Part shown: positions 3,001 through 37,346 of the stretch, piece by piece | Position numbering within the stretch: the stretch's first letter is position 1 | How the letters are laid out: each line of letters opens with the position of its first letter | NCBI GenBank assembly: GCA_947626075.1 | Contig: CANQQW010000001.1 | Location: 14,213-78,212, forward strand | Direction of reading: 5' to 3' | Origin: an uncultured Clostridia bacterium | GTDB taxonomy: Bacteria; Bacillota; Clostridia; UBA1381 | Length of the DNA: 64,000 bases | Made by a program: the position numbers and the translations under genes | Notes under the pieces: model-generated | The model's database searches: none | What the model was told of the DNA's origin: nothing | The model's input: only the letters and a program-made list of their open reading frames with translations

Positions 3001-6000
3001 AGCCAAAACCGGTACTGACGTATAAGTTTTTTGAGAACGGTCCCGGTCAGCTTGTCGAAGGTGAGGACTATACTCTTTCATGGGAGTCGAACGTGAACGC
3101 GGGTACGGGAAAGGTAATTGTTCGCGGCATAAACCGGTTTTCAGGTGAGATGTCAATACCGTTCACTATCAATAAGCGCAGTATAACCGAAGCGAGAATT
3201 ACACAGATACCCGCACAAGACTATACGGGAAATCCCATTACGCCTAACCCGACCTTGACGTATAACGGACATAAGCTGTTACAGTCCGCTGATTATACGC
3301 TAAGCTATTCGGATAATACTACGGATATAGGTACGGTAACCATTACCATAACAGGTATCGGTAACTTCGAGGGCACAGTTAATACAACGTTTGAGATTGA
3401 ACCGTCAGGAATTGAAGGGGTAGCCGTACATCATATACCCGACCAAGAATATAACGGCAAGCCGCAAGAACCTGATTTGACAATCACGTACAAAGGACGA
3501 ACGCTCGAGGAAGATACCGACTATACGTTAGACTACTCGAATAACGTAGATGTGGGTACTGCCACTGTTACCATTACAGGCGTGGAAAACTCGGGCTTTA
3601 CAGGTACAACAGAAGCCAATTTTAATATTATCGCGTGTCCAATATCCCGTGCGGCGATAGAAACACCCGATAATGTGACGTATACAGGTTCTGAGATCAC
3701 ACCCGGTCTGACTATTACATACAACGGCATGACGCTTGAACAGAATGTGGACTACACATTGGGCTACAGCGAGAACGTAAATGCGGGTATGGCAGAGATT
3801 ATTGTGACCGGTATAGGTAACTATTCAGGTACACGCAGCACTAACTTCGGTATAGATCCGTGTGAGATTTCCAAAGCTGATATTTCGGAAATAGACGAGC
3901 AGATGTATACGGGTGAGGTAATCACACCCAAGCCGACGCTCTCGTTCAACGGTAAGACACTGGTACAGGGCGTAGACTATACGCTGTACTATTCCGAAAA
4001 CAGGGATATTGGTACGGCTACTATTACAATAACAGGTAACGGCAACTTTACCGGTGTGACAACTACCACGTTCCAAATCATAGCATCCGATATTAAGGAT
4101 GTCATAGTGCTTAACATACCCGACCAGCTATATACCGGTAAGCAGATAACGCCTGATCCGACAATTATGTTTAACGGGCGACTGCTGGCTAAAGACTACG
4201 ACTATACACTAAGTTATGAAAATAACGTGGACGTAGGCACGGCTACGGTAACGATAACAAGTGTAGAGGAATCGGACTTTGTGGGTACGGCTACCAAGAC
4301 GTTTGAAATTGTTCCAAGACCTATCGCTGACGCGGCTATTACTCTGCCGAAGCATGAGACATATACGGGCGATCCGATAACACCACACCTAACAATTGAG
4401 TTTGAGGGTATGAGCCTTGTAGTAGGCAAGGACTACAATATATCATATGATAGTAACACCAATGTCGGAATGGCAGAAATAGTAATTGAGGGTATCAATA
4501 ATTTTGAAGGTTCACGGCATACGGTGTTTACAATTGTACCCCGCAACATCTTTGAAGCGGACATCACGGAAATACCGCCGCAGCACTATACGGGCGATGC
4601 TCTGACACCTGAACCGACTATCTCGTATCGCGGTAAGCCACTTACAAAGAACGTCGATTATGTATTGATGTACGCGAACAACGTAAGGGAAGGTACGGCT
4701 ACGGTAACGGTAAGGGGTGTTGGTAACTTTACAGACATAGCAACAACGACATTCAAAATCGAGTCGTCAGGTGTTGACGGCGTAGTAGTTTTAGGTATAC
4801 CCGACCAAGTATATACGGGTAAGCCCATAACTCCTGAACCGACTATCTCGTATCGCGGTAAAACACTCACGAAGGACGAAGATTACACCTTGGACTATGA
4901 GAATAACATCAATGTAGGACGTGCAACGGTTAAAATCACGGGCATAGCAGGTTCGGGATTTGACGGAACGACAACTGTTTCGTTCAATATAACGCACAAA
5001 CCGATTGCTGACGCGGCAATTAAGCTGCCTGAGCACCATGTCTATACCGGTGAACCGATACAACCGGAAATGGAAGTCACGTTAGAGGATTTGACGCTTG
5101 TCAAGGACAAAGACTATACGGTAGACTATGATGATAATACGCGTGTTGGTACAGCCGAAGTGGTTATAACGGGCGTAGGCAACTTTGCCGGCACAAGACA
5201 TACGGTATTTGCTATCATGCCTTGCGATATAGAGGATACGGATATAGACGATATACCCGCACAGGACTATACAGGCTATCATATAACGCCTGATCCGCAT
5301 ATATCATATAACGGTCAGGATTTGATATTCGGACGCGATTATACGTTAAAGTATGAAGATAACCTTGAGGTAGGTACTGCTACCGTTACTATCGCCGGAA
5401 ACGGTAATTTTACGGGCACAGTGGACAAGACGTTTGAAATATCGGAAATGGATATTGATTATGTCGATATTGCGCCTATACCGTCACAAACATATACCGG
5501 TTATGAGATAACGCCCGAGATGTCAATCACGTTCCACGGCAGAACGCTTGTTAAGGGCTTGGACTATACGGTTGAGTTTGAGAATAACAAGGACGTAGGT
5601 ACGGCTACGGTAATAATTACAGGTATTCCCGAAGCGGGCGTTAAAGGAACAAAGGAAACAGAGTTTGACATAACTCCCGCACAAATAAGCTCTGCTAAGG
5701 TATCATCGGTACCGAAGCATGAAACATACACGGGCGATCCGTATACACCTGAACCGACGCTTGTGTTCAACGGTATAGAGCTTGTTAAAGATGTCGATTA
5801 CACGTTGGACTACTCGAATAACGTAGACGCGGGTGAGGTTGTAATCACCATTACCGGTATGGGTAATTTTGAGGGTACAATGACCGAAACGTTTGTTATA
5901 GAAGCTGTGCTTATAACCAACGTTGAAGTAACCGCTATCCCGGCAGAAACATATTCGGGTGAGGAAATAACCCCTGAACCGACAGTGACGTATGAAGGTA

Positions 6001-8238: not shown

Positions 8239-8267
8239 TTGACATGAAATTTCCACTATGATATAAT
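8239..8267 (+). promoter_or_regulatory. Consensus sigma-A promoter with extended -10
   Basis: TTGACA (8239-8244), 17 bp, TG-n-TATAAT (8262-8267). Confidence 0.85.
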
Positions 8268-8273
8268 ACAGAT

Positions 8274-8502
8274 AAGTTATATGAAGTATTATGGAACGGA
8301 ACCACTATGTGATTTTGTTTCAACACTATTAAAAGTGACCGTTGGCGGGATTTTTGTACCATTTTTTATGAAGTAGTATAAAAATCCCTTTTGTTTATTT
8401 ACATCATTAGCAGAACGCAAAAAGACAAGTCGGTTACTTAAAAAATCAAGTTAAAAAAGAGAACGAAGATAATTATATTTTCGTTCTCTTTTTCTTTTTT
8501 TT
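8274..8502 (+). ncRNA. Candidate structured sRNA or attenuator leader
   Basis: Lies between a consensus promoter and a strong terminator. Nested helices AAGTGACCG/CGGTTACTT (8333-8341/8431-8439) and GGGATTTTTGTAC/GTATAAAAATCCC (8347-8359/8376-8388). No known family recognised. Confidence 0.4.
8454..8502. terminator. Strong, possibly bidirectional intrinsic terminator
   Basis: 14-bp stem AAAAAGAGAACGAA / TTCGTTCTCTTTTT with long T tail. Confidence 0.85.
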
Positions 8503-8586
8503 CTCAAGATGCTTATGTAATCATGTGTTCTCAAGGAGTTGTGTGCATATTTCCTTCTTGTTCCCGTAAAGAAAGGAATAAAGATT

Positions 8587-9105
8587 ATGGAAAAAACTCA
8601 AGAAGATTTAATATTGGACAATATAGATACCGCAAAGAATCTGGTACAAAGTATTTCCCAACGCCTACATTTAAGACCATCCACGCGCGAAGAATGTGAA
8701 GATATAGCCTTTTTTCAATTATGTAAGTGTGCATCCCAGTACGATGCAACGAAAGGCAAGTTTAAGACATATTTTGAAAAAAACGCAAGGTTCAAGATTT
8801 GGACATCCCTAAAAAAGGAGTTTCTGCATGGTATGTCGTATAGCAATAATTTAAATCTGCAAAACACACGGCAAATAGATTTAGATTTGAGCGAAATAGA
8901 AGCTACGAACGATGACATTACCGAAGCTGAAATAATCTTAGACATTAATAATATCCTTACGAAAAAACAACGCGATGCGTTTACTTATCTCCGTCAGGGA
9001 TTTGACAATCATAAAATTGCAGCAATTATAGGGATTTCAGATCGTGCTGCTCGCGCGTTAGTGCAACGTGTCAAAGATAAAATTTATATTGTTATCACTT
9101 CTTAA
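8587..9105 (+). CDS. Sigma-70-family (ECF/group 4-like) sigma factor
   Basis: Region-2-like EDIAFFQLCKCASQYDATKGKFKTY and region-4 HTH LTKKQRDAFTYLRQGFDNHKIAAIIGIS. ATG 8587 chosen from RBS AAAGGA. Confidence 0.7.
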   Translation: MEKTQEDLILDNIDTAKNLVQSISQRLHLRPSTREECEDIAFFQLCKCASQYDATKGKFKTYFEKNARFKIWTSLKKEFLHGMSYSNNLNLQNTRQIDLDLSEIEATNDDITEAEIILDINNILTKKQRDAFTYLRQGFDNHKIAAIIGISDRAARALVQRVKDKIYIVITS

Positions 9106-10756: not shown

Positions 10757-11187
10757 TGTTAAATATATCAGAAAAGCTAAAAAAAATATGGCAACAGTTA
10801 AAAGAAACACAAGTTCCACCTGCATTAAGGACTATGCAAATCAAACGGTCACTGTTTGCAATAATGGTATTTGCTGTAACGATACTGTCAGCGATACTGA
10901 CGAAGAATGTAGGATTTTTGGTCGGCGCGATTATAGGTTTGTACTTGCTGTATTTAGTCGTTGCGATTAAGTACGACTATGCAAACGGGAAAATAGCCGA
11001 GTATACATTAACTTGTTTGTACATAAAAACGCAACCAAACCGATTAGCGATCGTATTCGCCGATGATGAAGATAACAGAGACGTGTTTTTCACGTTAAAC
11101 AAGAAAGATAATTTTATTGAAGATATAAAATACACAATCTACTGTAAGAATGAAAGCAAGGTTATTATTGCGTATGAGCAATCATGA
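10753..11187 (+). CDS. Hypothetical membrane protein (2 TM)
   Basis: ATGA overlap with the upstream gene; two hydrophobic segments. Confidence 0.75.
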   Translation: MMLNISEKLKKIWQQLKETQVPPALRTMQIKRSLFAIMVFAVTILSAILTKNVGFLVGAIIGLYLLYLVVAIKYDYANGKIAEYTLTCLYIKTQPNRLAIVFADDEDNRDVFFTLNKKDNFIEDIKYTIYCKNESKVIIAYEQS

Positions 11188-11192
11188 TAAGG

Positions 11193-11228
11193 AGTCGCTG
11201 CAATTTTAGTAGATTGCAACGACTTTTT
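11193..11228 (+). terminator. Intrinsic terminator
   Basis: AGTCG-C-TGCAAT ... ATTGCA-A-CGACT followed by T run. Confidence 0.7.
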
Positions 11229-11366
11229 TACATATTAAGCAAGCGAGAAAGGCAATATGGAAGAAATTAAAAAAATTTATAACCAATATACCGTTTTCGT
11301 GATTTTGAGATATGTAATAAATGAGGGGCAAAGAAAGAAAACTTTTTGAAAGTAGGTGGTTCATTA

Positions 11367-11546
11367 TCTCGTCGCTCTTACGTCAACAGGGCAGAAAAAA
11401 GAAGACAAAGCACGTCGCCGGTCTTTTAAAGGGAGTCGTAATATAAAAGCTGATAGGTATTTTTTTCGAGTGATTTTCTCACTTGTTCCTTTCTTCTTAT
11501 CAGCATAAAAGAACGGTAGGGCTCCCTTCAAAAGGCGGGCGACAGA
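11367..11546 (+). ncRNA. Candidate ~180-nt structured RNA upstream of the S1-like gene
   Basis: Five nested helices, including GTCGCTC/GGGCGAC, AAGGGAG/CTCCCTT and GCTGATAG/TTATCAGC. No known family recognised; strand assumed from gene orientation. Confidence 0.4.
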
Positions 11547-11588
11547 AAAATAAATTGTATACAAGGCGTAAATAAAGGAGTGATTATA

Positions 11589-12764
11589 ATGCCGAGAGCG
11601 AAGAAAAACACTGTTGTTGAAGAAACAGTAAAGGATAACACAATTCAGGAAGAAGTAACACAGGAAGACCGCGAGCAAGAGGAAATCCTTGAACAAGCCG
11701 AAACGGAACATTCAAAGGATAAAGCGGCTTCTAAGCCTAAGACGAGGAAGAAAACAAAAATTATGGAAGATGACGTTTCCCAAGCCCCTGCACGGACGCG
11801 TAAAGACGTTATTAACGAAATGGTTACAAACGAAAGAACGCGAGCGGCAAGAAACGATAAGCGTGAGACTACGCTGATGAGTTGGGAACAGTTACGCGGC
11901 GCACACAAAGACGGCAGAATTGTAACAGGAAGTATATTCTCAATTGAGACACTGGACAACAAGCACGTCGTTGCTGTGGTTGATATGACAGGGTTCAGGG
12001 TCATTATCCCTATCGAGGAGATGTACAAGAATCCACCCTTGGACTACTCGACTGTAGTCAATGAAGCACAGCGCATACACCGTGAACGTCAAATGCTGTC
12101 CAAACTGTTAGGTGGCGAGATACAGTTTATTATAACCAACATTGACGGCTCACCATCAGACAATGAAGACGGATACCTGATTGTAGGTTCGCGTCGTCAG
12201 GCACTGGCACGTATAGAGGAACGCAATTACATACGTCATAGCCGTAACGGTATGCCCGCTATAACTGAGGGTAGTGTTGCTGAAGCTACGGTTGTATCAG
12301 TAGGTCAGCATGCCGTATTTGCAAATGTAGGCGGCGTAGACACTTCAATTTCCACATATCAGCTAACATATAGATATGTAGACAATGCCACAAATATGTA
12401 CACGCTTGGGGACAAATTCAATGTTGTCGTTAAGAGTATTGAGTTTGACGAGGACGGCAGCGTTAAAAATCTTGTCGTATCGGGCAAGGAAGCTGAGATT
12501 GAAGAATATCAGTCCCGCATTGATAAGATTAAGCCTAACACACTGACATTGGGTGTTATTACGTCTGTGAGAGCGTCAAAGAAGACACCCGGCAAGACAA
12601 TAATAACGCTGTTTATCGACGCATACAAGATGCCGGCTATGGCATCCTATGTCAAGATAGACACTATGGCAGAACCGCCCAAAACAGGCGACAGGGTTGT
12701 ATTCTCGACCTACATGGTAACGGATAGGGGATTCGTGATGGGACAGATCTTGCGTAAGGCATAA
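11589..12764 (+). CDS. Multi-S1 (OB-fold) RNA-binding protein resembling ribosomal protein S1 repeats
   Basis: S1-like units such as EGSVAEATVVSVGQHAVFANVGGVDTSISTYQLTYRYVDNATNMYTLGDKFNVVVKSIE; RBS AAGGAG before ATG 11589. Confidence 0.75.
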   Translation: MPRAKKNTVVEETVKDNTIQEEVTQEDREQEEILEQAETEHSKDKAASKPKTRKKTKIMEDDVSQAPARTRKDVINEMVTNERTRAARNDKRETTLMSWEQLRGAHKDGRIVTGSIFSIETLDNKHVVAVVDMTGFRVIIPIEEMYKNPPLDYSTVVNEAQRIHRERQMLSKLLGGEIQFIITNIDGSPSDNEDGYLIVGSRRQALARIEERNYIRHSRNGMPAITEGSVAEATVVSVGQHAVFANVGGVDTSISTYQLTYRYVDNATNMYTLGDKFNVVVKSIEFDEDGSVKNLVVSGKEAEIEEYQSRIDKIKPNTLTLGVITSVRASKKTPGKTIITLFIDAYKMPAMASYVKIDTMAEPPKTGDRVVFSTYMVTDRGFVMGQILRKA

Positions 12765-12798: not shown

Positions 12799-13671
12799 AT
12801 GATGGCAAAGAATGAGGGTGTGGACATATATGTTATCCCCGAGAACTTTATCGAAGGTGGAAGAATATTAAATGGTATGTTCAAAACACGGAATTTCGTT
12901 GAAGCTGTCGCGTTAGCATTAGCTGTAGGTATTCCGCTGTGGTTCATACCGTACCCTTCGGTTGCCATGAAAATGAGTGTCCTAATATCCGTTGTATTGC
13001 CTGTTTTCATAATGGGTGTCATCGGCATAAACGATAGCTCGTTGTTGGAGTTTCTGCAACAGTTCTTAAAGTGGCGAAAGAACAAGCGGATAATGATATA
13101 CAACACAAACACGCGCTCACGAGATGTAAGACCGGTTGAGGTTGTGCTATCACAGGAGCTGCCTAAAGATAAAATCGTAAAAACTATTGATACATGGCGT
13201 GAAAACAAGCGTCATAAGTCAACCGGCGAGACATTTATCGAGGGCAGAGACTTTGTATTTGACGAAGAAGTCAACACGTCATATACCGCCGCTGAAAACA
13301 AGCTCTTGTCACAGGACGATACGGACGAAACAGCAGAGAAGAAACCTAAGAAAGAGCGCAAACATAAGGGTAAAAAGGCAAAGGACGGCGAAAACACCGA
13401 AACCGCTGAAGAAACCGTTAGCACATCCGATACGGAAGAAGTTGATAATACCGAAGCAGAAACAGCGCAGGAAGCCGATACAGAGCCTACAGAAACCGAA
13501 AACGAGCCGCATGAGGTAAGTGATAGGGCAGAAGAAAACAGTGCGCAAGAAGGTAAAAGACCCGCCAAAAATGATGTACAAAAGCAAGAGGATGAGTTTG
13601 ACAAGTTTATCGACGTGGAAGCTGTGACGGACGAAACCGATGATGTGTTCGATATTATAACAGGGGAGTGA
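12799..13671 (+). CDS. prgI: PrgI-family (VirB3-like) T4SS membrane protein with long acidic tail
   Basis: YVIPENFIEGGRILNG..TRNFVEA motif, two TMs, EFL..FLKWRK; located immediately before VirB4. Confidence 0.7.
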   Translation: MMAKNEGVDIYVIPENFIEGGRILNGMFKTRNFVEAVALALAVGIPLWFIPYPSVAMKMSVLISVVLPVFIMGVIGINDSSLLEFLQQFLKWRKNKRIMIYNTNTRSRDVRPVEVVLSQELPKDKIVKTIDTWRENKRHKSTGETFIEGRDFVFDEEVNTSYTAAENKLLSQDDTDETAEKKPKKERKHKGKKAKDGENTETAEETVSTSDTEEVDNTEAETAQEADTEPTETENEPHEVSDRAEENSAQEGKRPAKNDVQKQEDEFDKFIDVEAVTDETDDVFDIITGE

Positions 13672-13677
13672 TAGAGA

Positions 13678-16203
13678 ATGGCAAAAGAACAAAAAGCGGC
13701 TAAAAAAGCCGGTCAAACCAAGAAAAAGCAAAAAAGCTTGATGAAAATCCAAAGCACACAAGCATTTCTCCCTATTCGCGATATATCTGACGGAATTATT
13801 ATAACGACCGACAGGAGGTTTATAAAAATCCTCGAAGTAACGCCTATAAATTTTTTGCTCAGGTCGCCATCTGAACAGAGCGCAATAGTACAGTCATTTG
13901 CCGGCGTTTTAAAGCAAATGCCGATCAAAGTACAGTTCAAGATTATATCTCGTCGAGCGGATGTGTCGAATTATATTGATAAGATATACACCAATATGGA
14001 GACAGAGGAAAACGATAAGTGTTTGCAGCTACAGGAAGAACAGATAAATCTTATTTCCACTGTTGGCGAGAGAGAGGGCATATCACGCCGGTTCTATATT
14101 ATTTTTGAATATGAAGAACCGACAGGCTTGCAGAAGTCCGCGACGTTCTCGGAGATCAAGTCGTCGTTAAACACTTATGCTATGCGTATTCAGAATATGC
14201 TCTTGCCTTGCGGAAACGAGGTACATCCACTTACAGACGATAAGGATATATTGAATGTATTCTATCAAATCCTGTGCAAAAACGAGAGCGATAATAAGGC
14301 GTTCGATATACGAATGTATGAGACCATTTCACGATACATAGCAGATACGAATTACAATCCCGAAAAGGACTCATACATACCGCTAACCGACTTTATATCG
14401 CCTAAGACAATAGATACGCGGCAATCGCCTAAATATATTGTTGTTGATGGGACATATTACGCATTTGCATACATTCCATCCAAGTCGTATAACACTACTT
14501 CAATAGCGGGTTGGCTGTCGTATCTTATAAACCTTGGCGAGGGCATAGATGTTGACCTATATATAAAGAAGGAAAACATAGCTTCCACACAACAGAAATT
14601 GGCATATGCACTGAGATTTAACAAGGTAAAGGCAAGGAGTATGGATGATACATCTGCCGACTATGACGATGTACGAGATGCCATATCTTCCGGGTACTAC
14701 CTGCGACAAGGCATATCAAACGGTGAGGACTTTTGCTATATGTCCATTTTACTCACGGTTATGGCAGATAGCTATGAGGAGCTTGAGTGGAAAATGCGCG
14801 AGGTGAAAGCATACCTAATTACACAGGATATACGCGTAAAATCGTGCCTGTTCCGTCAAGAGGAAGCGTTTTTAATGGCACTGCCGTTATGCTATATGGA
14901 CAATTTTATCTATCGCCGAGCGCGCAGAAATGTTTTAACGCATGATTGCGCGTCTGCTTATCCGTTCATATCGTTCGAGATTACTGATGAGAACGGCATT
15001 ATGCTTGGGCTTAATAAGAACAACAATTCACTGGTGTTCTTGGATCCGTTCGATACGAAAAAATATAAAAATGCCAATATGGCTATTATAGGAACGCCGG
15101 GTGCGGGAAAGACATATACACTACAATGTTTGGCTATGCGTATGCGTCAGCAAAAGAAGCAGGTATTCATTATCGCCCCTGATAAGGGATATGAGTTTAT
15201 ACGAGCTTGTGAGGAAATAGGCGGTGAGTATATCAATATCAGTGCCGGTTCAAAGCAGAATATAAACATCATGGAAATACGCAAAATGGATACTGAAACG
15301 TCGGAAATACTGGACGGTAGAAACGCTGTCAGCGCGTCTATTATGTCGCGCAAAATTCAACAGCTTCATATTTTTTTCACACTGTTAATACCTGATATAT
15401 CTTATGAGGAAAAGCAGTTGTTGGACGAAGCATTGGTTAATACATATGCAAAGTTTGGCATAACAGCTGATAATAAATCTCTTATCAATACTGACGATCC
15501 GACGAGGTATAAGCCAATGCCGATATTGGGTGACTTGCATAAAGAATTAAAGAAAATGGGTGAAAAAACAAACCGCCTATACAGCATATTGCTACGATAT
15601 ATTACAGGTTCGGCATCGTCTTTCAACGCTCAAACAAACGTCAACTTGGATAATAAATATATTATCTTGGACGTATCGGAGCTGACAAAAGAAATGATAC
15701 CTATGGGAATGTTTATTGTTCTTGACTATGTATGGGACAAAATCAAAGAGGATAGAACAAAGCGTAAAGTCATTTTTATAGACGAGGTATGGGAGTTAAT
15801 CGGTGCAAAAGCGTCTGAGGAAACGGCAGAATTTGTTCTTGAAATCTTTAAACTGATTCGTAGCTATGGCGGTAGCGCGGTGGCTTCAACGCAGGACCTA
15901 AACGACTTTTTCTCCCGTGACGACGGTCGATACGGTAAGGGTGTTGTAAACAGTGCAAAGATAAAGATTATCATGCAGCTTGAACAGCAAGAGGCAGAGT
16001 TCGTACAGGATGCGTTTAACCTGTCCGACACAGAACGACAGCAAGTAGCGCAGTTCCAAAAGGGTGAGGGATTGCTGTGTGCTAACAATAATCATGTGAT
16101 GATAAAGGTAACAGCATCCAAGACAGAGGACGAATTGATTACAACCGACTCAAATCAATTGCGCGAAATCGCGACACACAAACGCGAGGAAAGATATATT
16201 TAA
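13678..16203 (+). CDS. virB4: VirB4-like conjugative T4SS ATPase
   Basis: Walker A GTPGAGKT, Walker B VIFIDEVW, IRSYGG..VASTQ motif, 841 aa. Confidence 0.9.
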   Translation: MAKEQKAAKKAGQTKKKQKSLMKIQSTQAFLPIRDISDGIIITTDRRFIKILEVTPINFLLRSPSEQSAIVQSFAGVLKQMPIKVQFKIISRRADVSNYIDKIYTNMETEENDKCLQLQEEQINLISTVGEREGISRRFYIIFEYEEPTGLQKSATFSEIKSSLNTYAMRIQNMLLPCGNEVHPLTDDKDILNVFYQILCKNESDNKAFDIRMYETISRYIADTNYNPEKDSYIPLTDFISPKTIDTRQSPKYIVVDGTYYAFAYIPSKSYNTTSIAGWLSYLINLGEGIDVDLYIKKENIASTQQKLAYALRFNKVKARSMDDTSADYDDVRDAISSGYYLRQGISNGEDFCYMSILLTVMADSYEELEWKMREVKAYLITQDIRVKSCLFRQEEAFLMALPLCYMDNFIYRRARRNVLTHDCASAYPFISFEITDENGIMLGLNKNNNSLVFLDPFDTKKYKNANMAIIGTPGAGKTYTLQCLAMRMRQQKKQVFIIAPDKGYEFIRACEEIGGEYINISAGSKQNINIMEIRKMDTETSEILDGRNAVSASIMSRKIQQLHIFFTLLIPDISYEEKQLLDEALVNTYAKFGITADNKSLINTDDPTRYKPMPILGDLHKELKKMGEKTNRLYSILLRYITGSASSFNAQTNVNLDNKYIILDVSELTKEMIPMGMFIVLDYVWDKIKEDRTKRKVIFIDEVWELIGAKASEETAEFVLEIFKLIRSYGGSAVASTQDLNDFFSRDDGRYGKGVVNSAKIKIIMQLEQQEAEFVQDAFNLSDTERQQVAQFQKGEGLLCANNNHVMIKVTASKTEDELITTDSNQLREIATHKREERYI

Positions 16204-16206
16204 ACA

Positions 16207-16244
16207 TTTCATCCCACCGTTTTCAATATGGCGGTGGGATGAAA
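16207..16244. terminator. Terminator-like hairpin after virB4
   Basis: 13-bp stem TTTCATCCCACCG / CGGTGGGATGAAA; the A run after it would make it a better terminator on the minus strand. Confidence 0.65.
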
Positions 16245-16257
16245 AAACACTTTACAG

Positions 16258-16360
16258 AACGTTTATTAAACGTGTTAAAAGCGTGTTAAAAACGTTTGTT
16301 GGTAGTCAAAACGTTTATTAAAGCGTATATAAAGCGTTTATTAAACGTTTTATATACGTT
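16258..16360. repeat. Array of nine degenerate 11-bp-phased repeats (consensus ~AAACGTTTATT)
   Basis: CGT cores at 16260, 16271, 16282, 16293, 16312, 16324, 16335, 16346 and 16357. Confidence 0.8.
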
Positions 16361-16378: not shown

Positions 16379-16936
16379 ATGATTTCAACGATTTTAGTAA
16401 ATAACATTCTTGAGTTCGTGAACCGTATTGGGGTGGTAGAGGAAAATCAGCTCTTCACTATGTTCGGTATGACGCACGACATAGATACCATTGACTGGTG
16501 TTTACGACATCTTAGCCGAACCAATCAAATCAATATGGACAGGGAACGAGGAATAATTACACGTCGGCAATGGGTGAACGAGTCTGATTTCGGGCAGAAG
16601 CTAATGACGACGGCAACATGGGTTTTAGCTCACATGGGTGAAACGCGCGTACGGGACTTTTTTCCCGTTTCTTATCCGTCCCAACTACTGATTATAGGTG
16701 AGGACAACAACGTCTATGATGTGACGGTGTATACATGGCAAACACTCGACGCAATAAATATGTCGATTATCCCGAAGCGTAATCAGATCGTCCCGCCGGG
16801 TGAGGTTGATATGACTATACATATCGCGCTGCTTCCCGATGAGGAAATGGCAAGTAAGGTAAAGGCGTTCGGGTTCGATAATTACTGTATTCTCGACGAG
16901 AATGGTAAGCCTAAATACTACGAGTGGGAGGACTAA
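16379..16936 (+). CDS. Hypothetical protein, possible N-terminal winged helix
   Basis: RBS AGAAAGGA; ILEFVNRIGVVEENQL...CLRHLSRTNQI looks wHTH-like. Family not established. Confidence 0.65.
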   Translation: MISTILVNNILEFVNRIGVVEENQLFTMFGMTHDIDTIDWCLRHLSRTNQINMDRERGIITRRQWVNESDFGQKLMTTATWVLAHMGETRVRDFFPVSYPSQLLIIGEDNNVYDVTVYTWQTLDAINMSIIPKRNQIVPPGEVDMTIHIALLPDEEMASKVKAFGFDNYCILDENGKPKYYEWED

Positions 16937-17668: not shown

Positions 17669-17688
17669 TTTTCAACCTTTAAAAACTC

Positions 17689-17726
17689 GTGAAATTTATG
17701 TAATTTTTCGACTACATAAATTTCAC
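17689..17726. other. 14-bp perfect inverted repeat (oriT/operator candidate)
   Basis: GTGAAATTTATGTA-N10-TACATAAATTTCAC, no T tail, upstream of the Rep/relaxase candidate. Confidence 0.5.
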
Positions 17727-17856
17727 AAGGTTCGGGAGCGGATTTATATAGGTTTTTACTAAGGATTTTTAAGGCATAAGACCGAAAATCTATTGAAGAT
17801 AGATTAGCTTGATAGATTTTAGATCATACAACGGCAAAAAGAAAGGGGCAAAAGGA

Positions 17857-21106: not shown

Positions 21107-22285
21107 ATGGCAAAACGAGCCAACGGTGAAGGAACGATACGCAAACGAGTATCGGGGAAGAAAGGTAACATTAGGTGGGAAGGGAGGTATTACGATCCAT
21201 ACCTAAAGAAGCAAAAGAGTGTGTATGGGGACACTAAAGAGGAAGTCCGAAAGATGTTGTCACAGATTGCCGTAAAGAAAGACACGGGCAATTTTGTATC
21301 GCAAAACAACATAACGCTCGACGAATGGCGAGAAACGTACTTAAGCCTATACGTTGAAGGAGTATTAAAACCGCAAACGATCAGTGCAAAACAGAAAATG
21401 TATACGCTGCACATACAGCCAATGATTGGCAGTAAATGTGTACAGAACATAACAGATATGGATGTAAAAACACTGTTAAACCGGCTACAGGCGTTGCATT
21501 ATGCTACCAGTACCATATCCAACATACGCAACGAGCTATCTACCATGTTAAAAAGGGCAGTAGAGCATAAGCTCATAAGCAGCAATCCGGTAAGCAATAT
21601 CAAAGCGGTCAACGGTACAGACAGCAAAGAACGACGAGAACTGACAGACTATGAGCTAAAATGGTTTTTTCGAGGTTTAGAGGAGAGAAGACCACAAGAC
21701 CTGCTATTTTTCCTGATAATGGCAACCACAGGCGCAAGATGCGGTGAAGTTATAGGGTTACAGTGGTGCAACTTTTCAGACGACTATTCGAGTATGAGCA
21801 TAAACAAAACATATACTCAATACCAAACCGAGCAAGGAGTTATACGAGGGTTTAGCAAACCAAAGACGAAAACATCCGTTCGTACCATACCTATCATACC
21901 GAAAGTCAGTGAAGAATTACGGAAAAAATATGAGGAAAACAAAGAGATTATGTCTTCATTGAATCAAACAATATCCGATAATGACTTTATTTTTATGGAT
22001 TTTAGACGTGATAGGGTTAATAATCACAGTTATTATCGCAACGTCATAAAAGGTGTTTTAGATTATCTAAAGAGGTGTTACAACATAGAAATAGAGATGT
22101 TTTCAACACACTATTTTAGACATACGTTCACAAGCCGAGCATTGCGTAGTAATGTATCACTGGAAACATTAAAGCGATTGTTGGGACACAAGAGCTATAA
22201 TATGATCGAACAGGTTTATGCCCATGTATCTCAAAGCGACAAAGTTAATGCGGTAATGGCTATGTTCAGCGAAGCCAACAATTAG
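21107..22285 (+). CDS. int: Tyrosine integrase (Tn916-like N-terminal arm-binding domain)
   Basis: MAKRANGEGTIRKR..WEGRY N-terminus; catalytic TGARCGE, PKTKTS, HYFRH, LGH and VYAH. Confidence 0.95.
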   Translation: MAKRANGEGTIRKRVSGKKGNIRWEGRYYDPYLKKQKSVYGDTKEEVRKMLSQIAVKKDTGNFVSQNNITLDEWRETYLSLYVEGVLKPQTISAKQKMYTLHIQPMIGSKCVQNITDMDVKTLLNRLQALHYATSTISNIRNELSTMLKRAVEHKLISSNPVSNIKAVNGTDSKERRELTDYELKWFFRGLEERRPQDLLFFLIMATTGARCGEVIGLQWCNFSDDYSSMSINKTYTQYQTEQGVIRGFSKPKTKTSVRTIPIIPKVSEELRKKYEENKEIMSSLNQTISDNDFIFMDFRRDRVNNHSYYRNVIKGVLDYLKRCYNIEIEMFSTHYFRHTFTSRALRSNVSLETLKRLLGHKSYNMIEQVYAHVSQSDKVNAVMAMFSEANN

Positions 22286-24152: not shown

Positions 24153-25985
24153 ATGGGAAAAATAATAGGAATTGACCTGGGAACAACAAACAGCTGCGTG
24201 GCAGTTATGGAGGGCGGAAACCCGAACGTTATCACTAACAGTGAGGGCGCGAGAACCACTCCGTCCGTTGTCGCTTTCCAAAAGGACGGCGAGAGAATAG
24301 TCGGACAGGTGGCGAAGCGTCAGGCTGTCACCAATGCGGACAGAACTATAATGTCCATAAAGAGAAAAATGGGTACTACGGAAAAGGTTACGATAGACGG
24401 TAAGGCGTACACGCCGCAGGAAATTTCGGCAATGATTTTGTCGAAGCTAAAGCAGGACGCGGAAAGCTACCTCGGAGAAACGGTAACGCAGGCGGTCATT
24501 ACTGTTCCCGCTTACTTTAACGACTCACAGCGTCAGGCGACGAAAGACGCGGGTAAGATTGCGGGTCTTGAGGTAATGAGAATAGTAAACGAGCCTACGG
24601 CTGCGGCGCTTGCTTACGGCGTGGGCGAGAAAGATCAGAAGATAATGGTATACGACCTCGGCGGCGGTACGTTCGATGTGTCTATACTTGACATTTCGGA
24701 CGGCGTGTTCGAGGTGCTTTCGACAAACGGCGACACGCATTTGGGCGGCGACGATTTTGACCAAAGAATTATCGATTTCCTTGTATCGGAATTTAAGAAG
24801 AGCGACGGCGTAGACCTTTCGGGCGACAAAATGGCTATGCAGCGTCTTAAGGAAGCGGCGGAAAAGTCGAAGATAGAACTTTCGACAACTACTACCTCAA
24901 ACATCAACCTGCCGTTTATAACAGCCGACGCGTCAGGCCCCAAGCATATGGACATCACGCTTACAAAGGCTAAGTTTGACGAGCTTACGGCTGACCTTGT
25001 TGACAGAACGTTGACGTGTATCCGTAACGCTATGAGAGACGCGTCGCTCAGCGCGTCTCAGATCGACGAAGTTCTTCTTGTCGGCGGCTCGTCGAGAATA
25101 CCGGCTGTACAGGAAGCCGTTAAAAAGGAAATGGGCAAAGAGCCGAACAAGGGAATTAACCCCGACGAGTGCGTTGCCGTGGGCGCCGCAAGACAGGCGG
25201 GCGTTCTTTCGGGCGATAACTCGCAGGATATACTTCTTCTTGACGTAACGCCGCTGTCTCTCGGTATCGAAACTATGGGCGGCGTGTTCACGAAACTTAT
25301 CGAAAGAAACACTACAATACCAACCTCAAAGTCGCAGATATTCTCAACGGCGGCGGACGGTCAAACGTCGGTTGAGGTTCACGTTCTCCAGGGCGAGAGA
25401 GAAATGGCTCAGTACAATAAGACGCTCGGACGCTTTAACCTTACCGGCATAGCTCCCGCGCCGCGCGGCGTGCCGCAGATTGAGGTAACGTTTGACATTG
25501 ACGCGAACGGTATCGTAAACGTAAGCGCAAAGGATTTGGGAACGGGCAACGAGCAGAAAATTACGATTACAGCTTCTTCAAACCTTTCGGACGAAGATAT
25601 AGATAAAGCGGTGAAAGAAGCCGAAAAGTATGCGGAGGAGGACAAGAAGCGCAAAGAGGAAGTTGAGATTAGAAACAACGCCGAATCGCTTGTATACCAG
25701 TGTGAGAAAGCCGTTAAGGACGCTGGCGACAAGATTGACGACGCGACAATGGTAGAGACCGAGGTAAACAAGGTTAAGGAAGCGCTTAAGGGTACGGACA
25801 GCGCGGCTATAAAGGCGGCGACAGACGAGCTTCAGGAAAAGTTTTACACCGTAGCGCAGCAGATGTACGCACAGGCTAACCCGCAGGGCGCGGACCCGAA
25901 CGCGGGCGCGGATTCAAACGCGGCGCCGGGCGGAGATAATGTTTACGAAGCTGACTATAAGGAAGTAGACAACGATAACAAATAA
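24153..25985 (+). CDS. dnaK: Chaperone DnaK
   Basis: [32 protein letters not shown]. Confidence 0.99.
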
Positions 25986-25994
25986 AACAGACGC

Positions 25995-26023
25995 GGGGCT
26001 GTCTTAACCGACAGCCCCTGTTT
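25995..26023 (+). terminator. Intrinsic terminator after dnaK
   Basis: GGGGCTGTC-N6-GACAGCCCC followed by TGTTT. Confidence 0.75.
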
Positions 26024-26030
26024 GCGGTAG

Positions 26031-26124
26031 ATTATGATTTAGCGATGTATTTGCGGTGTGGACGTAGGGGCGGTCATTGGCCGCCCGTTCCCGACGTCCC
26101 GCATTTACACCGTCAAATCATAAT
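26031..26124. repeat. REP-containing miniature element, copy 1
   Basis: Terminal IR ATTATGATTT/AAATCATAAT enclosing GTAGGGGCGGTCATTGGCCGCCCG; first ~58 bp identical to copy 2. Confidence 0.8.
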
Positions 26125-35220: not shown

Positions 35221-35252
35221 AAAAGCCGCTCAGACTTTTGTCTGAACGGCTT
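35221..35252 (-). terminator. glnA terminator
   Basis: Minus-strand AAGCCGTTCAGACAAAAGTCTGAGCGGCTTTT. Confidence 0.8.
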
Positions 35253-35270
35253 ATGTAGTTTATTATACGA

Positions 35271-37346
35271 TTATACGAGATAGAGTAAATCCGTGTATGT
35301 CGGGAACGGCCAGTATTCCTTTGAAACCATTGTTTCAAGAGTATCCGCCGTTTCACGCAGCGCCGCCATAGCGGGAAGCACCTTTTCTTTGTAGTACATA
35401 CCCACCGCGTACGCGTCAACATCGGGAATATCCGTAGCCGCGTCGAGAGCGTCGATTTTTGCCATAAGCTCCTCCGTAAGCGCGGTCAGCGTCTTAACTC
35501 TTTCAAGCTCATTCGGCGCGTCGATACCGAGCGCTTTCTTTGAAGCGTAATCTTCGGCGACAAAATTCGTGTACTTGAGACATGCGGGAAGAATTTCCTG
35601 CTTTGCCATTTCAAGCATTGTAAGCATCTCGAAATGAACCGTGTTGTTGTAATCCTCCATCATAATCTCGCCGCGCGTCTTAACCTCGACCTCTGTAAAC
35701 ACGCCCTGCTTAGTGAACAGGTCAATCGACTTCTGCGCCACGAAATGGGGGAGAGCGTCCGGAGTAGTTTTGAGGTTATAAAGACCTCTTCTTTCAGCCT
35801 CTTCGATCCACTCGTCGCTGTAACCGTTACCGTTGAATATGATTCTGTCATGCTCGGAGAAAATCTTAACCGCAAGCTCGAACGCGTCCTTTTGAATATT
35901 TTTGCTGCCTTCAAGCTCATCTGCGATTTCCGTAAGCGTCTCCGCGACGATTGTATTGATAACGATGTTGATACCCGCGATTGATTGTCTCGAACCGGGC
36001 GCGCGGAACTCGAAACGGTTACCCGTAAACGCGAACGGAGACGTTCTGTTTCTGTCAGTGGTATCTCTTTCGATGTCGGGGAGAGCGTCAACGCCTGTTT
36101 CAATTAAATCACCCGACGCACTCTTAACATCCTTATGCTTTTTCAGACGGTCAACGACAGCCGCGAGCTGATCGCCCAGATACATAGATATAATAGCGGG
36201 CGGCGCTTCGTTCGCACCGAGACGGTGATCGTTACCCGCCGTTGCGACCGACGCCCTTAAAATATCCGCGTAATCATCAATAGCCTTAATAACAGCCGCA
36301 AGGAACAACAGGAACTGTACATTTTCCTCGGGCTTTTTACCCGGTCTTAACAAAAGTTCCCCGTCCGACGTACCGATTGACCAGTTGTTGTGCTTACCGC
36401 TTCCGTTTATACCCTCATACGGCTTTTCATGGAGCAGACAGTACAGACCGTGATGGTCGGCGACCTTTTTAAGAATTTCCATTGTAAGCTGGTTATGGTC
36501 GGTAGAGATATTTGTCGTTGAGAATACAGGCGCGATTTCATGCTGAGCGGGAGCCACCTCGTTGTGTTTCGTCTTTGCGAACACACCGAGCTTCCATAAC
36601 TCCTCGTCAACCTCTTTCATGAAGTTTGCGACTCTTTCCTTGATTTGACCGAAATAATGGTCGTCCATTTCCTGACCCTTTGCGGGCTTCGCGCCGAAGA
36701 GCGTTCTGCCTGTAAGGAGTAAGTCCTTACGCTTATTTCTGAGCTTCTTATCTACCAGGAAGTACTCCTGCTCGGGACCTACGTAAGCGACGACCCTCTT
36801 GGGATACTTACCGAACAGCGCGAGCACCTTTTTAGCCGCTTTATCTATTGCCGCTTCCGAGCGCAGGAGCGGAGTTTTCTTGTCAAGCACCTCACCGCTG
36901 TAGGAAACGAATGACGTGGGAATGTACAATGAATTATCCTTGATGAACGCGAACGAAGTCGGATCCCACGCCGTGTAGCCTCTCGCCTCGAATGTGGCTC
37001 TCAGTCCGCCCGAGGGGAAAGAGGATGCGTCAGGTTCACCCATAACAAGCTCCTTGCCGGAGAATTCCATAATAACCGTTCTGTCGTCCGTCGGCTGAAT
37101 GAAAGAATCGTGCTTTTCCGCCGTAAGACCCGTCATCGGCTGGAACCAGTGGGTGTAGTGGGTGCAGCCGTTTTCGATTGCCCAGTCTTTCATTGCGTGA
37201 GCGACTACCTCCGCAACCGAAATATCAAGCTTTGTGCCGTCATTGATTGTCTTTACAAGTGACTTGTACGTTTCCTTAGGAAGACGTTCCTTCATGGTCG
37301 GCAGATTAAATACCTTACTGCCGAAGATTTGTGCAACATTACTCAT
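35271..37346 (-). CDS. glnA: Glutamine synthetase type III
   Basis: THYTHWFQPMTGLTAEKHDSF, EPDASSFPSGG, HEKPYEGINGSGKHNNWS, DRNRTSPFAFTGNRFEFR. Confidence 0.96.
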   Translation of the reverse strand: MSNVAQIFGSKVFNLPTMKERLPKETYKSLVKTINDGTKLDISVAEVVAHAMKDWAIENGCTHYTHWFQPMTGLTAEKHDSFIQPTDDRTVIMEFSGKELVMGEPDASSFPSGGLRATFEARGYTAWDPTSFAFIKDNSLYIPTSFVSYSGEVLDKKTPLLRSEAAIDKAAKKVLALFGKYPKRVVAYVGPEQEYFLVDKKLRNKRKDLLLTGRTLFGAKPAKGQEMDDHYFGQIKERVANFMKEVDEELWKLGVFAKTKHNEVAPAQHEIAPVFSTTNISTDHNQLTMEILKKVADHHGLYCLLHEKPYEGINGSGKHNNWSIGTSDGELLLRPGKKPEENVQFLLFLAAVIKAIDDYADILRASVATAGNDHRLGANEAPPAIISMYLGDQLAAVVDRLKKHKDVKSASGDLIETGVDALPDIERDTTDRNRTSPFAFTGNRFEFRAPGSRQSIAGINIVINTIVAETLTEIADELEGSKNIQKDAFELAVKIFSEHDRIIFNGNGYSDEWIEEAERRGLYNLKTTPDALPHFVAQKSIDLFTKQGVFTEVEVKTRGEIMMEDYNNTVHFEMLTMLEMAKQEILPACLKYTNFVAEDYASKKALGIDAPNELERVKTLTALTEELMAKIDALDAATDIPDVDAYAVGMYYKEKVLPAMAALRETADTLETMVSKEYWPFPTYTDLLYLV

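What the first reader, a model, noticed from the sequence alone, without database searches (positions are those of the whole stretch)
11367..11546. Second structured RNA: ~180-nt nested rod directly upstream of the S1-like gene
Seen: helices 11371-11377/11537-11543, 11402-11406/11421-11425, 11429-11435/11522-11528, 11449-11457/11496-11504 and 11469-11473/11479-11483, with A-rich internal loops. It follows a terminator and ends ~30 nt before the RBS. Inference: an autoregulatory target of the S1 protein, an antiterminator RNA, or a 6S-like rod with central bubble interacting with RNA polymerase. No known family recognised.
Basis: partly seen in the sequence, partly recalled or inferred. Interest (0 to 1): 0.72.

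Follow-up and report, generated by a model that had tools for sequence, protein, structure and literature searches.

The report
Conserved hairpin leading a conjugation operon
A conserved 130-base hairpin lies in the untranslated leader of a DNA-transfer (type IV secretion) operon on a mobile element of an uncultured rabbit-gut Clostridia bacterium; it matches no described RNA family, and what it does was not shown.

Summary
The structure is real. Window 11414-11543 (+) folds into one imperfect hairpin (-57.3 kcal/mol, z = -8 against shuffles). The two outer ones are replaced by a continuous 22-bp lower stem.

That lower stem is the most conserved part of the intergenic region. It is 47/48 nt identical to a relative whose neutral sites are only 67% identical. 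Across the four known copies it has 7 compensatory pairs. All copies fold 7-14 kcal/mol better on the sense strand.

The hairpin lies between the terminator of an upstream sigma-factor operon and the ribosome-binding site of the first gene (S1-domain protein) of an S1-PrgI-VirB4 operon.

It matches no Rfam family. It also fails the defining tests for these known kinds:
- zipper-type attenuator (no terminator follows it)
- conAn antitermination system (no ConAn1)
- 6S RNA
- Frpo single-strand promoter
- ssoA single-strand origin

Best reading: a cis-acting leader RNA element, probably a double-stranded processing or stability determinant. Mechanism and expression are unproven; no RNA data exist. 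Only three loci carry it, all rabbit-gut MAGs. Interest is moderate.

The parts
11194..11229 (+). Intrinsic terminator ending the upstream sigma / 485-aa / 144-aa operon: stem 11194-11204 with 11213-11223, loop of 8, then T6.
   Evidence: Sequence. The stem and T-run are conserved in L001 and L002. The single C.A mismatch (11198/11219) becomes a C-G pair in the A11219G variant carried by contigs of two metagenome runs.
11230..11413 (+). Upstream leader or promoter region with conserved blocks: TTTACATA 11227-11234, TGAGGGGC 11322-11329, SD-like GAAAGTAGGTGG 11348-11359 and ATCTCGTCGCTCTTACGTCAAC 11366-11387. The promoter was not identified.
   Evidence: Blocks are conserved in the window/L001/L002 alignment. 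No sigma-70-type promoter match on the + strand here. Segment 11264-11316 also occurs, with 6 differences, on another contig of the same metagenomes.
11414..11437 (+). 5' arm of the conserved lower stem (6 bp, G.G mismatch, 7 bp, A.C mismatch, 9 bp).
   Evidence: Fold. 24/24 nt identical to L001 and 19/24 to L002. Covariation.
11438..11519 (+). Apical domain: 2 bp 11439-40/11517-18; internal loop of 8 x 12 nt; 9-bp helix 11449-57/11496-504; internal loop of 9 x 10 nt with a pyrimidine-rich 3' side; 7-bp hairpin 11467-73/11479-85 with a 5-nt loop.
   Evidence: Fold. 80% identical to L001, with indels of 3, 2 and 3 nt that rule out coding. Replaced by a different apical hairpin in L002.
11520..11543 (+). 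3' arm of the conserved lower stem.
   Evidence: 23/24 nt identical to L001; the one change turns U-A into U.G. Covariation with the 5' arm.
11544..11588 (+). A-rich spacer, Shine-Dalgarno AAGGAG (11575-11580), and an 8-nt spacer to the ATG.
   Evidence: Sequence. The spacer is poorly conserved: 44% identity to L001.
11589..12764 (+). First gene of the operon: 391-aa protein with several S1 domains and a Lys/Glu-rich N-terminus. It is followed by a PrgI-like gene (12799-13671) and a VirB4/TraC-like ATPase gene (13678-16203).
   Evidence: Pfam S1, PrgI and P-loop_TraG hits. The family profile matches ribosomal protein bS1 over about 200 residues, E = 6e-23.

Best explanation
The hairpin is a cis-acting structured RNA element in the 5' untranslated leader of the mRNA for the S1-PrgI-VirB4 (mating-channel) operon of an integrated conjugative element.

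Shown: the structure; its conservation well beyond neutral expectation; compensatory changes; better folding on the sense strand; and its position between an upstream terminator and the ribosome-binding site.

Inferred: it is transcribed from a promoter lying between 11230 and about 11410, probably one that depends on the element's own ECF-like sigma factor encoded just upstream.

Inferred mechanism: the functional core is the base of the rod, about two helical turns of near-perfect duplex with conserved sequence. It sets the fate of the transcript after initiation. Either a double-strand-specific endonuclease (RNase III type) cleaves it, or it blocks 5'-to-3' decay. Either way it would set how much translatable T4SS mRNA accumulates. 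It does not occlude the Shine-Dalgarno sequence. The tandem second rod in L002 suggests a modular, dose-like element.
For: - Fold z = -5.2 to -8.0; among the top local folds of the window.
- The lower stem is 47/48 nt identical to L001, while four-fold degenerate sites of the adjacent gene are 112/166 (67%) identical. Against L002 it is 37/54 identical, versus 35% at four-fold sites.
- In the alignment of four copies, 20 pairs are 98.8% paired and 7 pairs changed on both sides. 0/500 shuffles reach this, and slid controls give 38-61% paired. RNAalifold finds the same stem independently.
- The sense strand folds 14.3, 10.7, 7.4 and 10.9 kcal/mol better than the antisense strand in the four copies.
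- One-sided changes give G.U far more often than A.C: by my count, about 9 events against 2.
- Position: after terminator 11194-11229, 31 nt before AAGGAG. The flanks are A-rich, as in sense-strand leaders.
- Indels that are not multiples of 3 exclude coding.
- An ECF-type sigma gene lies upstream, and the spacer has no sigma-70 promoter match.
- Long structured leader RNAs are an established feature of Gram-positive conjugation operons (PMC13401043, PMC8191782, PMC11658703).
Against: - No expression data: only DNA metagenome runs hold the sequence. The promoter and transcript 5' end are unknown.
- The RNase III / stability mechanism rests on geometry and analogy, not on any test.
- Only three loci (four copies, three effectively independent) exist, so covariation statistics are thin.
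- G.T wobbles are also tolerated in single-stranded DNA, so a + strand ssDNA role is not excluded.
- The high sequence conservation of the lower stem could equally reflect a sequence-specific protein partner.
Confidence: 0.4

Rival explanations
1. RNA polymerase-directed leader RNA. The rod, perhaps with the conserved upstream blocks, would modify the elongating polymerase (processive antitermination, as with canT of Tn916, conAn2 of pLS20, put of HK022 or EAR). Alternatively it is the long-stem part of an attenuator related to the zipper type.
For: The position is the same as the leader elements of Gram-positive conjugation operons, where a long imperfect stem-loop (ext-SL-3) is essential (PMC13401043). 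canT and conAn2 are large cis-acting RNAs. Conserved single-stranded blocks lie upstream of the rod. The first gene encodes an RNA-binding S1-domain protein; S1 domains also occur in elongation factors such as NusA (own knowledge).
Against: No intrinsic terminator follows or overlaps the 3' arm in the window, L001 or L002. No alternative pairing is conserved. No ConAn1/PF17362 protein is present, and the preceding 144-aa protein has no family hit. The downstream operon shows only one weak sense-strand terminator-like site (16651-16668, 6-bp stem, inside a gene) that would need bypassing.
Confidence: 0.2
2. Single-stranded DNA element of the transferred strand: a single-strand origin or priming site, a hairpin promoter of the Frpo/ssi kind, or an oriT-associated hairpin that works when the + strand is single-stranded during conjugation.
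For: The element is conjugative (PrgI, VirB4, integrase). The + strand also folds better with DNA parameters, by 1.9-4.4 kcal/mol in the four copies. S1 domains are OB folds that could bind ssDNA (own knowledge).
Against: Neither arm carries a -35/-10 pair pointing towards the S1 gene. The only promoter-like match (TCGAAA-18-TATATT, 9/12) is on the - strand pointing away, and a 3-nt deletion in L001 disrupts its -10. The terminal loop has no CS-6 (TAGCGT) motif. No plasmid in the collection shows similarity. No relaxase or oriT was identified nearby. The DNA-fold energy is modest (-24.6 kcal/mol).
Confidence: 0.12
3. Binding platform for the S1-domain protein encoded immediately downstream, giving autoregulation or recruitment, with the A-rich flanks and loops as S1 contact sites.
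For: The rod is adjacent to the gene, and its flanks and internal loops are A-rich. The protein is a genuine multi-S1-domain protein. The lower stem is conserved in sequence beyond what pairing alone requires. There is precedent in rpsA autoregulation (own knowledge).
Against: S1-domain genes of the same family in L008, pMM35_02 and pRSJ17_1 lie mid-operon, next to or one small gene after VirD4, with no leader hairpin. L003 has only a short leader with z = -1.1. S1 domains bind single-stranded nucleic acid rather than duplex (own knowledge).
Confidence: 0.1
4. Minus-strand function: a long-stem intrinsic terminator for antisense transcription, or the body of a cis-antisense RNA (FinP-like) covering the S1 ribosome-binding site.
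For: On the - strand the hairpin is followed by a U-rich tract in all three genomes, for example UUGUUUUUUG in L002. A TATAAT / GATAAT lies on the - strand over the start-codon region. Another long hairpin in the element (17729..17686) also scores as a - strand terminator.
Against: The - strand folds 7-14 kcal/mol worse in all four copies, and wobble changes favour the + strand. There is no acceptable -35 for the - strand TATAAT. No - strand genes are present. The A-rich + strand composition is enough to explain the U-run.
Confidence: 0.06
5. Double-stranded DNA feature: an inverted-repeat operator for a regulator, or the remnant of a miniature inverted-repeat mobile element.
For: The two arms are conserved in sequence. 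L002 carries a tandem second copy.
Against: The half-sites would lie about 90 bp apart. One-sided substitutions are biased to G.U, which has no meaning in duplex DNA. No other copy was found in the window, in the metagenome contigs laid at 80% likeness, or in the genome and viral collections.
Confidence: 0.05

Closest known systems
ext-SL-3 of the zipper-type attenuator cATT of pLS20-family and other Gram-positive conjugative plasmids (PMC13401043)
   Same: A long imperfect stem-loop of roughly 100 nt in the leader directly upstream of the first gene of a Gram-positive conjugation operon. A weak hairpin may lie upstream of it, and the fully zipped long stem is the default fold.
   Different: No intrinsic terminator overlaps or follows the 3' arm, so there is nothing to switch. 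The first gene is an S1-domain protein, not conAn1. No sequence similarity.
Processive antitermination RNAs of conjugative elements: conAn2 (pLS20; PMC8191782) and canT (Tn916; PMC11658703)
   Same: Cis-acting, orientation-specific, structured non-coding RNA regions at the head of conjugation gene clusters in Firmicutes. Their sequences are poorly conserved between elements.
   Different: Those are 260-600 nt with several stem-loops, and conAn2 follows the gene for the ConAn1 protein. Their operons contain multiple internal terminators. Here there is one 130-nt rod, no ConAn1, and no clear internal terminators.
RNase III-processed leader hairpins and 5' stabilisers (lambda N leader, T7 R1.1-type sites, SP82 early mRNA sites in B. 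subtilis). Cited from own knowledge.
   Same: An imperfect hairpin with about two turns of duplex and internal loops, in an untranslated leader upstream of a strong Shine-Dalgarno sequence, on a mobile-element transcript.
   Different: No cleavage or stability data exist here, and there is no sequence relationship.
6S RNA (Rfam RF00013)
   Same: Rod-like overall shape with internal loops.
   Different: No match to any Rfam model. Not a free-standing gene. Much shorter closing and terminal stems. It sits 31 nt from a ribosome-binding site.
Frpo/ssi single-strand promoters of conjugative plasmid leading regions (PMC11541004)
   Same: A long hairpin directly upstream of a gene on a conjugative element.
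   Different: No -35/-10 pair in the stem facing the gene. The better-folding strand is the sense strand, not the template strand. No similarity to plasmid sequences.

Membership tests
Zipper-type conjugation attenuator (cATT, PMC13401043) | Located in the leader upstream of the first gene of a conjugation operon | tested here: met
   Lies between terminator 11194-11229 and the SD of the first gene of the S1-PrgI-VirB4 cluster. The promoter itself was not located.
Zipper-type conjugation attenuator (cATT, PMC13401043) | Long imperfect stem-loop (ext-SL-3) | tested here: met
   130-nt imperfect hairpin, z = -8.
Zipper-type conjugation attenuator (cATT, PMC13401043) | Intrinsic terminator (hairpin plus U-tract) just upstream of the first gene's SD, overlapping the antiterminator | tested here: not met
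   Downstream of the rod there is only an A-rich spacer with no hairpin plus U-run, in the window, L001 and L002.
Zipper-type conjugation attenuator (cATT, PMC13401043) | Upstream weak stem-loop whose 3' strand pairs with the terminator's 5' strand to extend the long stem | tested here: not met
   Upstream GTCGCTC (11371-77) can replace GTCGCC (11414-19) in the window and L001, but L002 has no equivalent. With no terminator there is no alternative state.
conAn bipartite antitermination (PMC8191782) | ConAn1 protein (Pfam PF17362, pXO2-34) encoded immediately upstream of the RNA element | tested here: not met
   The 144-aa upstream protein has no Pfam or NCBIfam hit.
conAn bipartite antitermination (PMC8191782) | Multiple intrinsic terminators within the downstream operon that are read through | tested here: inconclusive
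   The only sense-strand terminator-like site downstream of the rod is 16651-16668, a 6-bp stem inside a gene. The hairpin after VirB4 (16208-16243) is followed by A's, not U's.
6S RNA | Match to the Rfam 6S covariance model | tested here: not met
   No hit at gathering score over the window, nor at E <= 10 over 11150-11650.
6S RNA | Free-standing small RNA gene with its own 3' end | tested here: not met
   No terminator follows the rod on the + strand, and the SD is 31 nt downstream.
Frpo/ssi single-strand DNA promoter (criteria of PMC11541004) | -35 and -10 consensus elements within the hairpin stem, directed at the downstream gene | tested here: not met
   No + directed promoter-like site in 11414-11543. 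The only match is on the - strand pointing away, 9/12, and is not conserved in L001.
Frpo/ssi single-strand DNA promoter (criteria of PMC11541004) | Sequence similarity to known Frpo/ssi | tested here: not met
   blastn of 11230-11590 against 72,556 plasmids found no match.
ssoA-type single-strand origin (own knowledge of the family) | CS-6 (TAGCGT-like) in the terminal loop and an RS-B element in the stem | tested here: not met
   The terminal loop is TTTTC, and the rod contains no TAGCG. Function as an sso is not testable with these tools.
Intrinsic terminator | Stem directly followed by a U-tract on the transcribed strand | tested here: not met
   + strand: AGAAAAAUAAA follows the stem. - strand: a U-rich run follows, but there is no - strand gene or promoter and the fold is weaker.
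S1 (rpsA-like) autoregulatory leader | The structured leader travels with the S1-domain gene across relatives | tested here: not met
   Absent upstream of the homologues in L003, L008, pMM35_02 and pRSJ17_1.
S1 (rpsA-like) autoregulatory leader | Binding of the encoded protein to the leader RNA | not testable with these tools
   Needs a gel-shift or filter-binding assay.

The most novel reading that the evidence does not exclude
The rod and the multi-S1-domain protein encoded right after it form a previously undescribed two-part RNA-protein module at the head of a clostridial conjugation operon. The nascent rod would recruit the S1-domain protein (NusA-like in domain type) or RNA polymerase itself, changing elongation or mRNA protection for the whole T4SS transcript. 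This would be a functional analogue of conAn1/conAn2 built from unrelated parts.
Probability: 0.1. Interest if true: 0.7.

Novelty: new variant of a known kind. Interest (0 to 1): 0.35.

Why it matters
Conjugation operons of Gram-positive bacteria are proving to be controlled after initiation by large leader RNAs: conAn2, canT and the zipper attenuator. All examples so far come from cultured Bacilli and Enterococci.

This hairpin shows that an uncultured gut Clostridia element keeps a strongly selected long-stem leader element at the same place, but without the terminator that gives the zipper attenuator its switch. If it acts on transcript processing or stability, or binds the element's own S1-domain protein, it would add a different control layer for expression of the DNA-transfer machinery in gut anaerobes.

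Its known distribution is very narrow: three rabbit-gut MAG loci. That limits its general importance.

Tried and rejected
1. Rfam, at gathering score over the whole window and at E <= 10 on 11150-11650: nothing on the rod.
2. Widening the family:
- S1 protein and alignment scans of genome and metagenome collections gave only L001 and L002.
- The protein database gave 6 homologues.
- A two-arm DNA pattern in genome contigs gave the L001 contig (as L015) plus 16 other hits; the two Clostridia hits I read, L021 and L022, lie in coding sequence and are chance matches. The same scan did not return the L002 contig, although by my reading its sequence fits the pattern, so the scan is not exhaustive.
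- The viral collection gave nothing, and plasmid blastn gave nothing.
3. An ECF-type promoter idea (GAAAG-N17-CGTC at 11348-11373): the motif occurs no more often than chance and nowhere else in the element. Dropped as unsupported.
4. An anti-SD idea, that the pyrimidine-rich internal loop pairs with the S1 SD: duplex energies are no better than shuffled sequence in all four copies. Rejected.
5. Small ORFs:
- 11258-11353 has no start codon in L001.
- 11356-11508 is broken by a 2-nt indel in L001.
- The ATT/ATC-started frame through the 5' arm is not kept in L002.
All rejected.
6. Zipper attenuator, conAn, 6S, Frpo, ssoA and terminator memberships: each failed a defining test (see the membership table).
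7. A search for the second locus carrying a copy of 11264-11316: no exact match in the genome or metagenome collections.
8. RNA evidence: only DNA runs hold the sequence.
9. Long hairpins at the equivalent position in distant relatives: none in L003 or L008. The leader of the pMM35_02 T4SS operon instead has an ordinary terminator hairpin.

Full report
**Setting**

The window is bacterial chromosome: it holds a small SRP RNA, a tRNA and hrcA-grpE-dnaK-dnaJ. From about 8.2 kb to 22.3 kb it carries the right-hand part of an integrated conjugative-type element. In order, this part contains:
- an ECF-like sigma factor gene (8539-9105)
- a 485-aa and a 144-aa gene
- an intergenic gap of 400 nt
- a 391-aa S1-domain gene (11589-12764)
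- a PrgI-like gene
- a VirB4/TraC-like ATPase gene
- DUF5697 and DUF6100 genes
- a 417-aa gene
- an NA37 nucleoid-protein gene
- a tyrosine integrase gene (21107-22285)

A 2683-aa LRR/SLH surface protein precedes this part.

The closest relatives are two rabbit-gut 'uncultured Clostridia' MAGs. L001/L009 has an S1 protein 92-94% identical, and L002/L010 has one 58-61% identical. Both share the same gene order.

**The observation**

The structure is a single rod, 11414-11543. On its own it gives -57.3 kcal/mol, z = -7.97. From base to tip it consists of:
- 6 bp, a G.G mismatch, 7 bp, an A.C mismatch and 9 bp, which together form the lower stem (11414-37 with 11520-43)
- 2 bp
- an 8 x 12 nt internal loop
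- a 9-bp helix
- a 9 x 10 nt internal loop
- a 7-bp hairpin with a 5-nt loop

The two outer ones (11371-77/11537-43 and 11402-06/11421-25) are competing pairings that neither the energy nor the comparison favours. In a GC-corrected scan of the whole window, the rod is among the six most stable 140-nt segments on either strand.

**Conservation and covariation**

L001 has the same rod (z = -5.8). L002 has an orthologous rod (5729-5841, z = -5.0) followed at once by a second rod (5850-5962, z = -9.1) whose base is a 26-bp uninterrupted stem.

A plain MAFFT alignment of the four copies puts the lower stems in register. Across 20 pairs, 98.8% of cells are paired and 7 pairs changed on both sides. 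No shuffle out of 500 reaches the observed values, and slid controls pair at only 38-61%. RNAalifold finds the same 20 pairs with no input from me.

Between the window and L001, four-fold degenerate sites of the adjacent gene are only 67% identical, yet the lower stem is 47/48 identical. The single change converts U-A to U.G. Against L002, four-fold sites are saturated at 35%, while the 5' arm is 79% identical and the 3' arm 60%. The apical part is much less constrained and is replaced in L002. The core of the element is therefore the two-turn duplex at the base.

**Which strand, and RNA or DNA**

In all four copies the + strand, which is the sense strand of the downstream genes, folds better as RNA by 14.3, 10.7, 7.4 and 10.9 kcal/mol. 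With DNA parameters the advantage is 1.9-4.4 kcal/mol.

One-sided substitutions in stems give G.U on the + strand about nine times and A.C twice. This is my count. That bias is expected for a + strand single-stranded molecule. It is not expected for a duplex-DNA operator or a minus-strand RNA.

Indels of 3, 3, 2 and 3 nt between the window and L001 exclude coding.

No RNA sequencing run holds the locus. The seven runs found are DNA metagenomes. Transcription is therefore inferred, not shown.

**Surroundings of the rod**

The upstream operon ends in a good intrinsic terminator (11194-11229). Its one mismatch is repaired by the A11219G variant seen in two runs.

The next 185 nt hold blocks conserved in all three genomes, but no sigma-70-type promoter. 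An alternative-sigma promoter, plausibly served by the sigma factor encoded just upstream, is therefore a reasonable inference. My candidate ECF-like motif did not survive a chance test.

Segment 11264-11316 recurs, with six differences, on another contig of the same metagenomes. This suggests a shared regulatory sequence. I could not retrieve that locus.

Downstream of the rod there are 31 A-rich, poorly conserved nucleotides and then AAGGAG-N8-ATG. The rod does not sequester the SD. Its pyrimidine-rich loop is no more complementary to the SD than shuffled sequence is.

**Comparison with known systems**

Rfam has nothing on the rod.

The literature on Gram-positive conjugation operons offers three leader-RNA systems:

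1. The zipper-type attenuator of pLS20-family and other plasmids. It has a long imperfect stem-loop, ext-SL-3, flanked by a weak upstream hairpin and a downstream intrinsic terminator whose strands can extend the long stem (PMC13401043). The rod resembles ext-SL-3 in place and shape. However, no terminator follows it in any of the three genomes, and the alternative pairing is not conserved, so a defining feature is not met.
2. conAn. This requires a ConAn1 (PF17362) gene immediately upstream of the RNA (PMC8191782). The 144-aa protein here has no family hit in Pfam or NCBIfam.
3. canT, a 340-450-nt multi-hairpin RNA that overrides defined terminators (PMC11658703). Here the operon downstream of the rod shows only one weak sense-strand terminator-like site.

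The other candidate families also fail their tests:
- Frpo-type single-strand promoters need -35/-10 boxes in the stem facing the gene (PMC11541004). None is present.
- ssoA-type origins have a CS-6 loop motif (own knowledge). The loop here is TTTTC.
- As a terminator, the rod lacks a U-tract on the + strand. On the - strand a U-rich run follows it in all three genomes. But that strand folds worse, has no credible promoter, and serves no gene.

**The S1-domain gene**

Its family profile matches ribosomal protein bS1 across about 200 residues (E = 6e-23).

In relatives the gene sits inside the operon. It directly follows a CD1115-family VirD4 coupling-protein gene in L008 and Vescimonas pMM35_02. 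In Clostridium argentinense pRSJ17_1 one small gene lies between them. None of these has a hairpin in front of the S1 gene. In L003 the gene has a sigma-70 promoter and a short leader whose fold is unremarkable. The rod therefore belongs to the head of the operon in one clade rather than to the S1 gene as such. This weakens, but does not exclude, the autoregulation idea.

**Verdict**

This is a real, selected, sense-strand hairpin in the leader of a T4SS operon. I rate 'cis-acting leader RNA element' as likely, at about two in three.

Within that reading, I think the most probable mechanism is a double-stranded processing or stability determinant at the conserved two-turn base. My overall confidence in the full statement is 0.4.

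The rivals, in order:
- polymerase-directed antitermination or attenuation, 0.2
- a single-stranded DNA role during transfer, 0.12
- a binding site for the S1-domain protein, 0.1
- a minus-strand function, 0.06
- a duplex-DNA repeat, 0.05

The rod is a new variant of the leader-RNA controls known for Gram-positive conjugation operons. Its distribution is very narrow and no expression data exist.

Noticed in passing
window 8239-8538; L002 2407-2700: A perfect sigma-70 promoter (TTGACA-17-TATAAT with TG, 8239-8267) is followed by a ~190-nt leader. Then comes an 18-bp-stem hairpin flanked by an A-run and a T-run (8454-8493), just upstream of the element's sigma-factor gene. L002 has the same layout: promoter TTGACT...TATAAT near 2407-2440 and a long-stem terminator near 2630-2668.
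   Followed up: partly
window 16250-16360; L002 10905-11000: The intergenic region between the VirB4-like and DUF5697 genes is filled with repeated, partly inverted AAACGT / AAGCGT-TTA(TT)AAA units. They are conserved in kind in L002. They look like iteron-type protein-binding sites, either an internal promoter/operator or an oriT candidate.
   Followed up: partly
window 16208-16243; L002 10869-10900: A GC-rich 12-bp hairpin lies right after the VirB4-like gene. It is followed by a run of A's rather than T's in both genomes, so it is not a canonical sense-strand terminator.
   Followed up: no
window 17683-17732: A 20-nt inverted repeat, 90% complementary with a 10-nt spacer, lies between the DUF6100 gene and the 417-aa gene. 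Its T-run is on the minus strand, and it scores as a long-stem minus-strand terminator inside a plus-strand gene cluster.
   Followed up: no
window 11219: Contigs of two rabbit-gut metagenome runs carry G instead of A here. This turns the only mismatch of the terminator stem (C11198 / A11219) into a C-G pair.
   Followed up: yes
window 11264-11316: This 53-nt stretch of the leader/promoter region also lies, with 6 differences, on a different contig at higher depth in all three runs examined. There it continues as TATATGAGAGGGGATAATTAAAAGTCTGTT. This points to a second locus sharing the regulatory sequence. That locus could not be retrieved from the genome or metagenome collections.
   Followed up: partly
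L002 5850-5962: A second rod lies in tandem with the orthologous one. It has a 26-bp uninterrupted basal stem with 4 G.U pairs (by my own pair-by-pair reading of the fold), z = -9.1. It aligns with the first rod's lower stem with many compensatory changes, which points to duplication and divergence of the element.
   Followed up: yes
window 11589-12764; L008, L028 (pMM35_02), L029 (pRSJ17_1): Multi-S1-domain proteins (bS1-like over about 200 aa) recur as companions of CD1115-family VirD4 coupling proteins. They occur in clostridial T4SS clusters with DUF5697/DUF6100, including a 140-kb Clostridium argentinense plasmid. No role in conjugation appears to have been described, and no paper mentions these DUFs.
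   Followed up: partly
window 25981-26120: This is the most stable local fold of the whole window (-66.6 kcal/mol, GC-corrected z = -4.75). It lies in the dnaK-dnaJ intergenic region and is strong on both strands.
   Followed up: no
window 35221-35360: A strong + strand local fold (z = -3.85) lies at the 3' end of the minus-strand type III glutamine synthetase gene. No Rfam hit.
   Followed up: no
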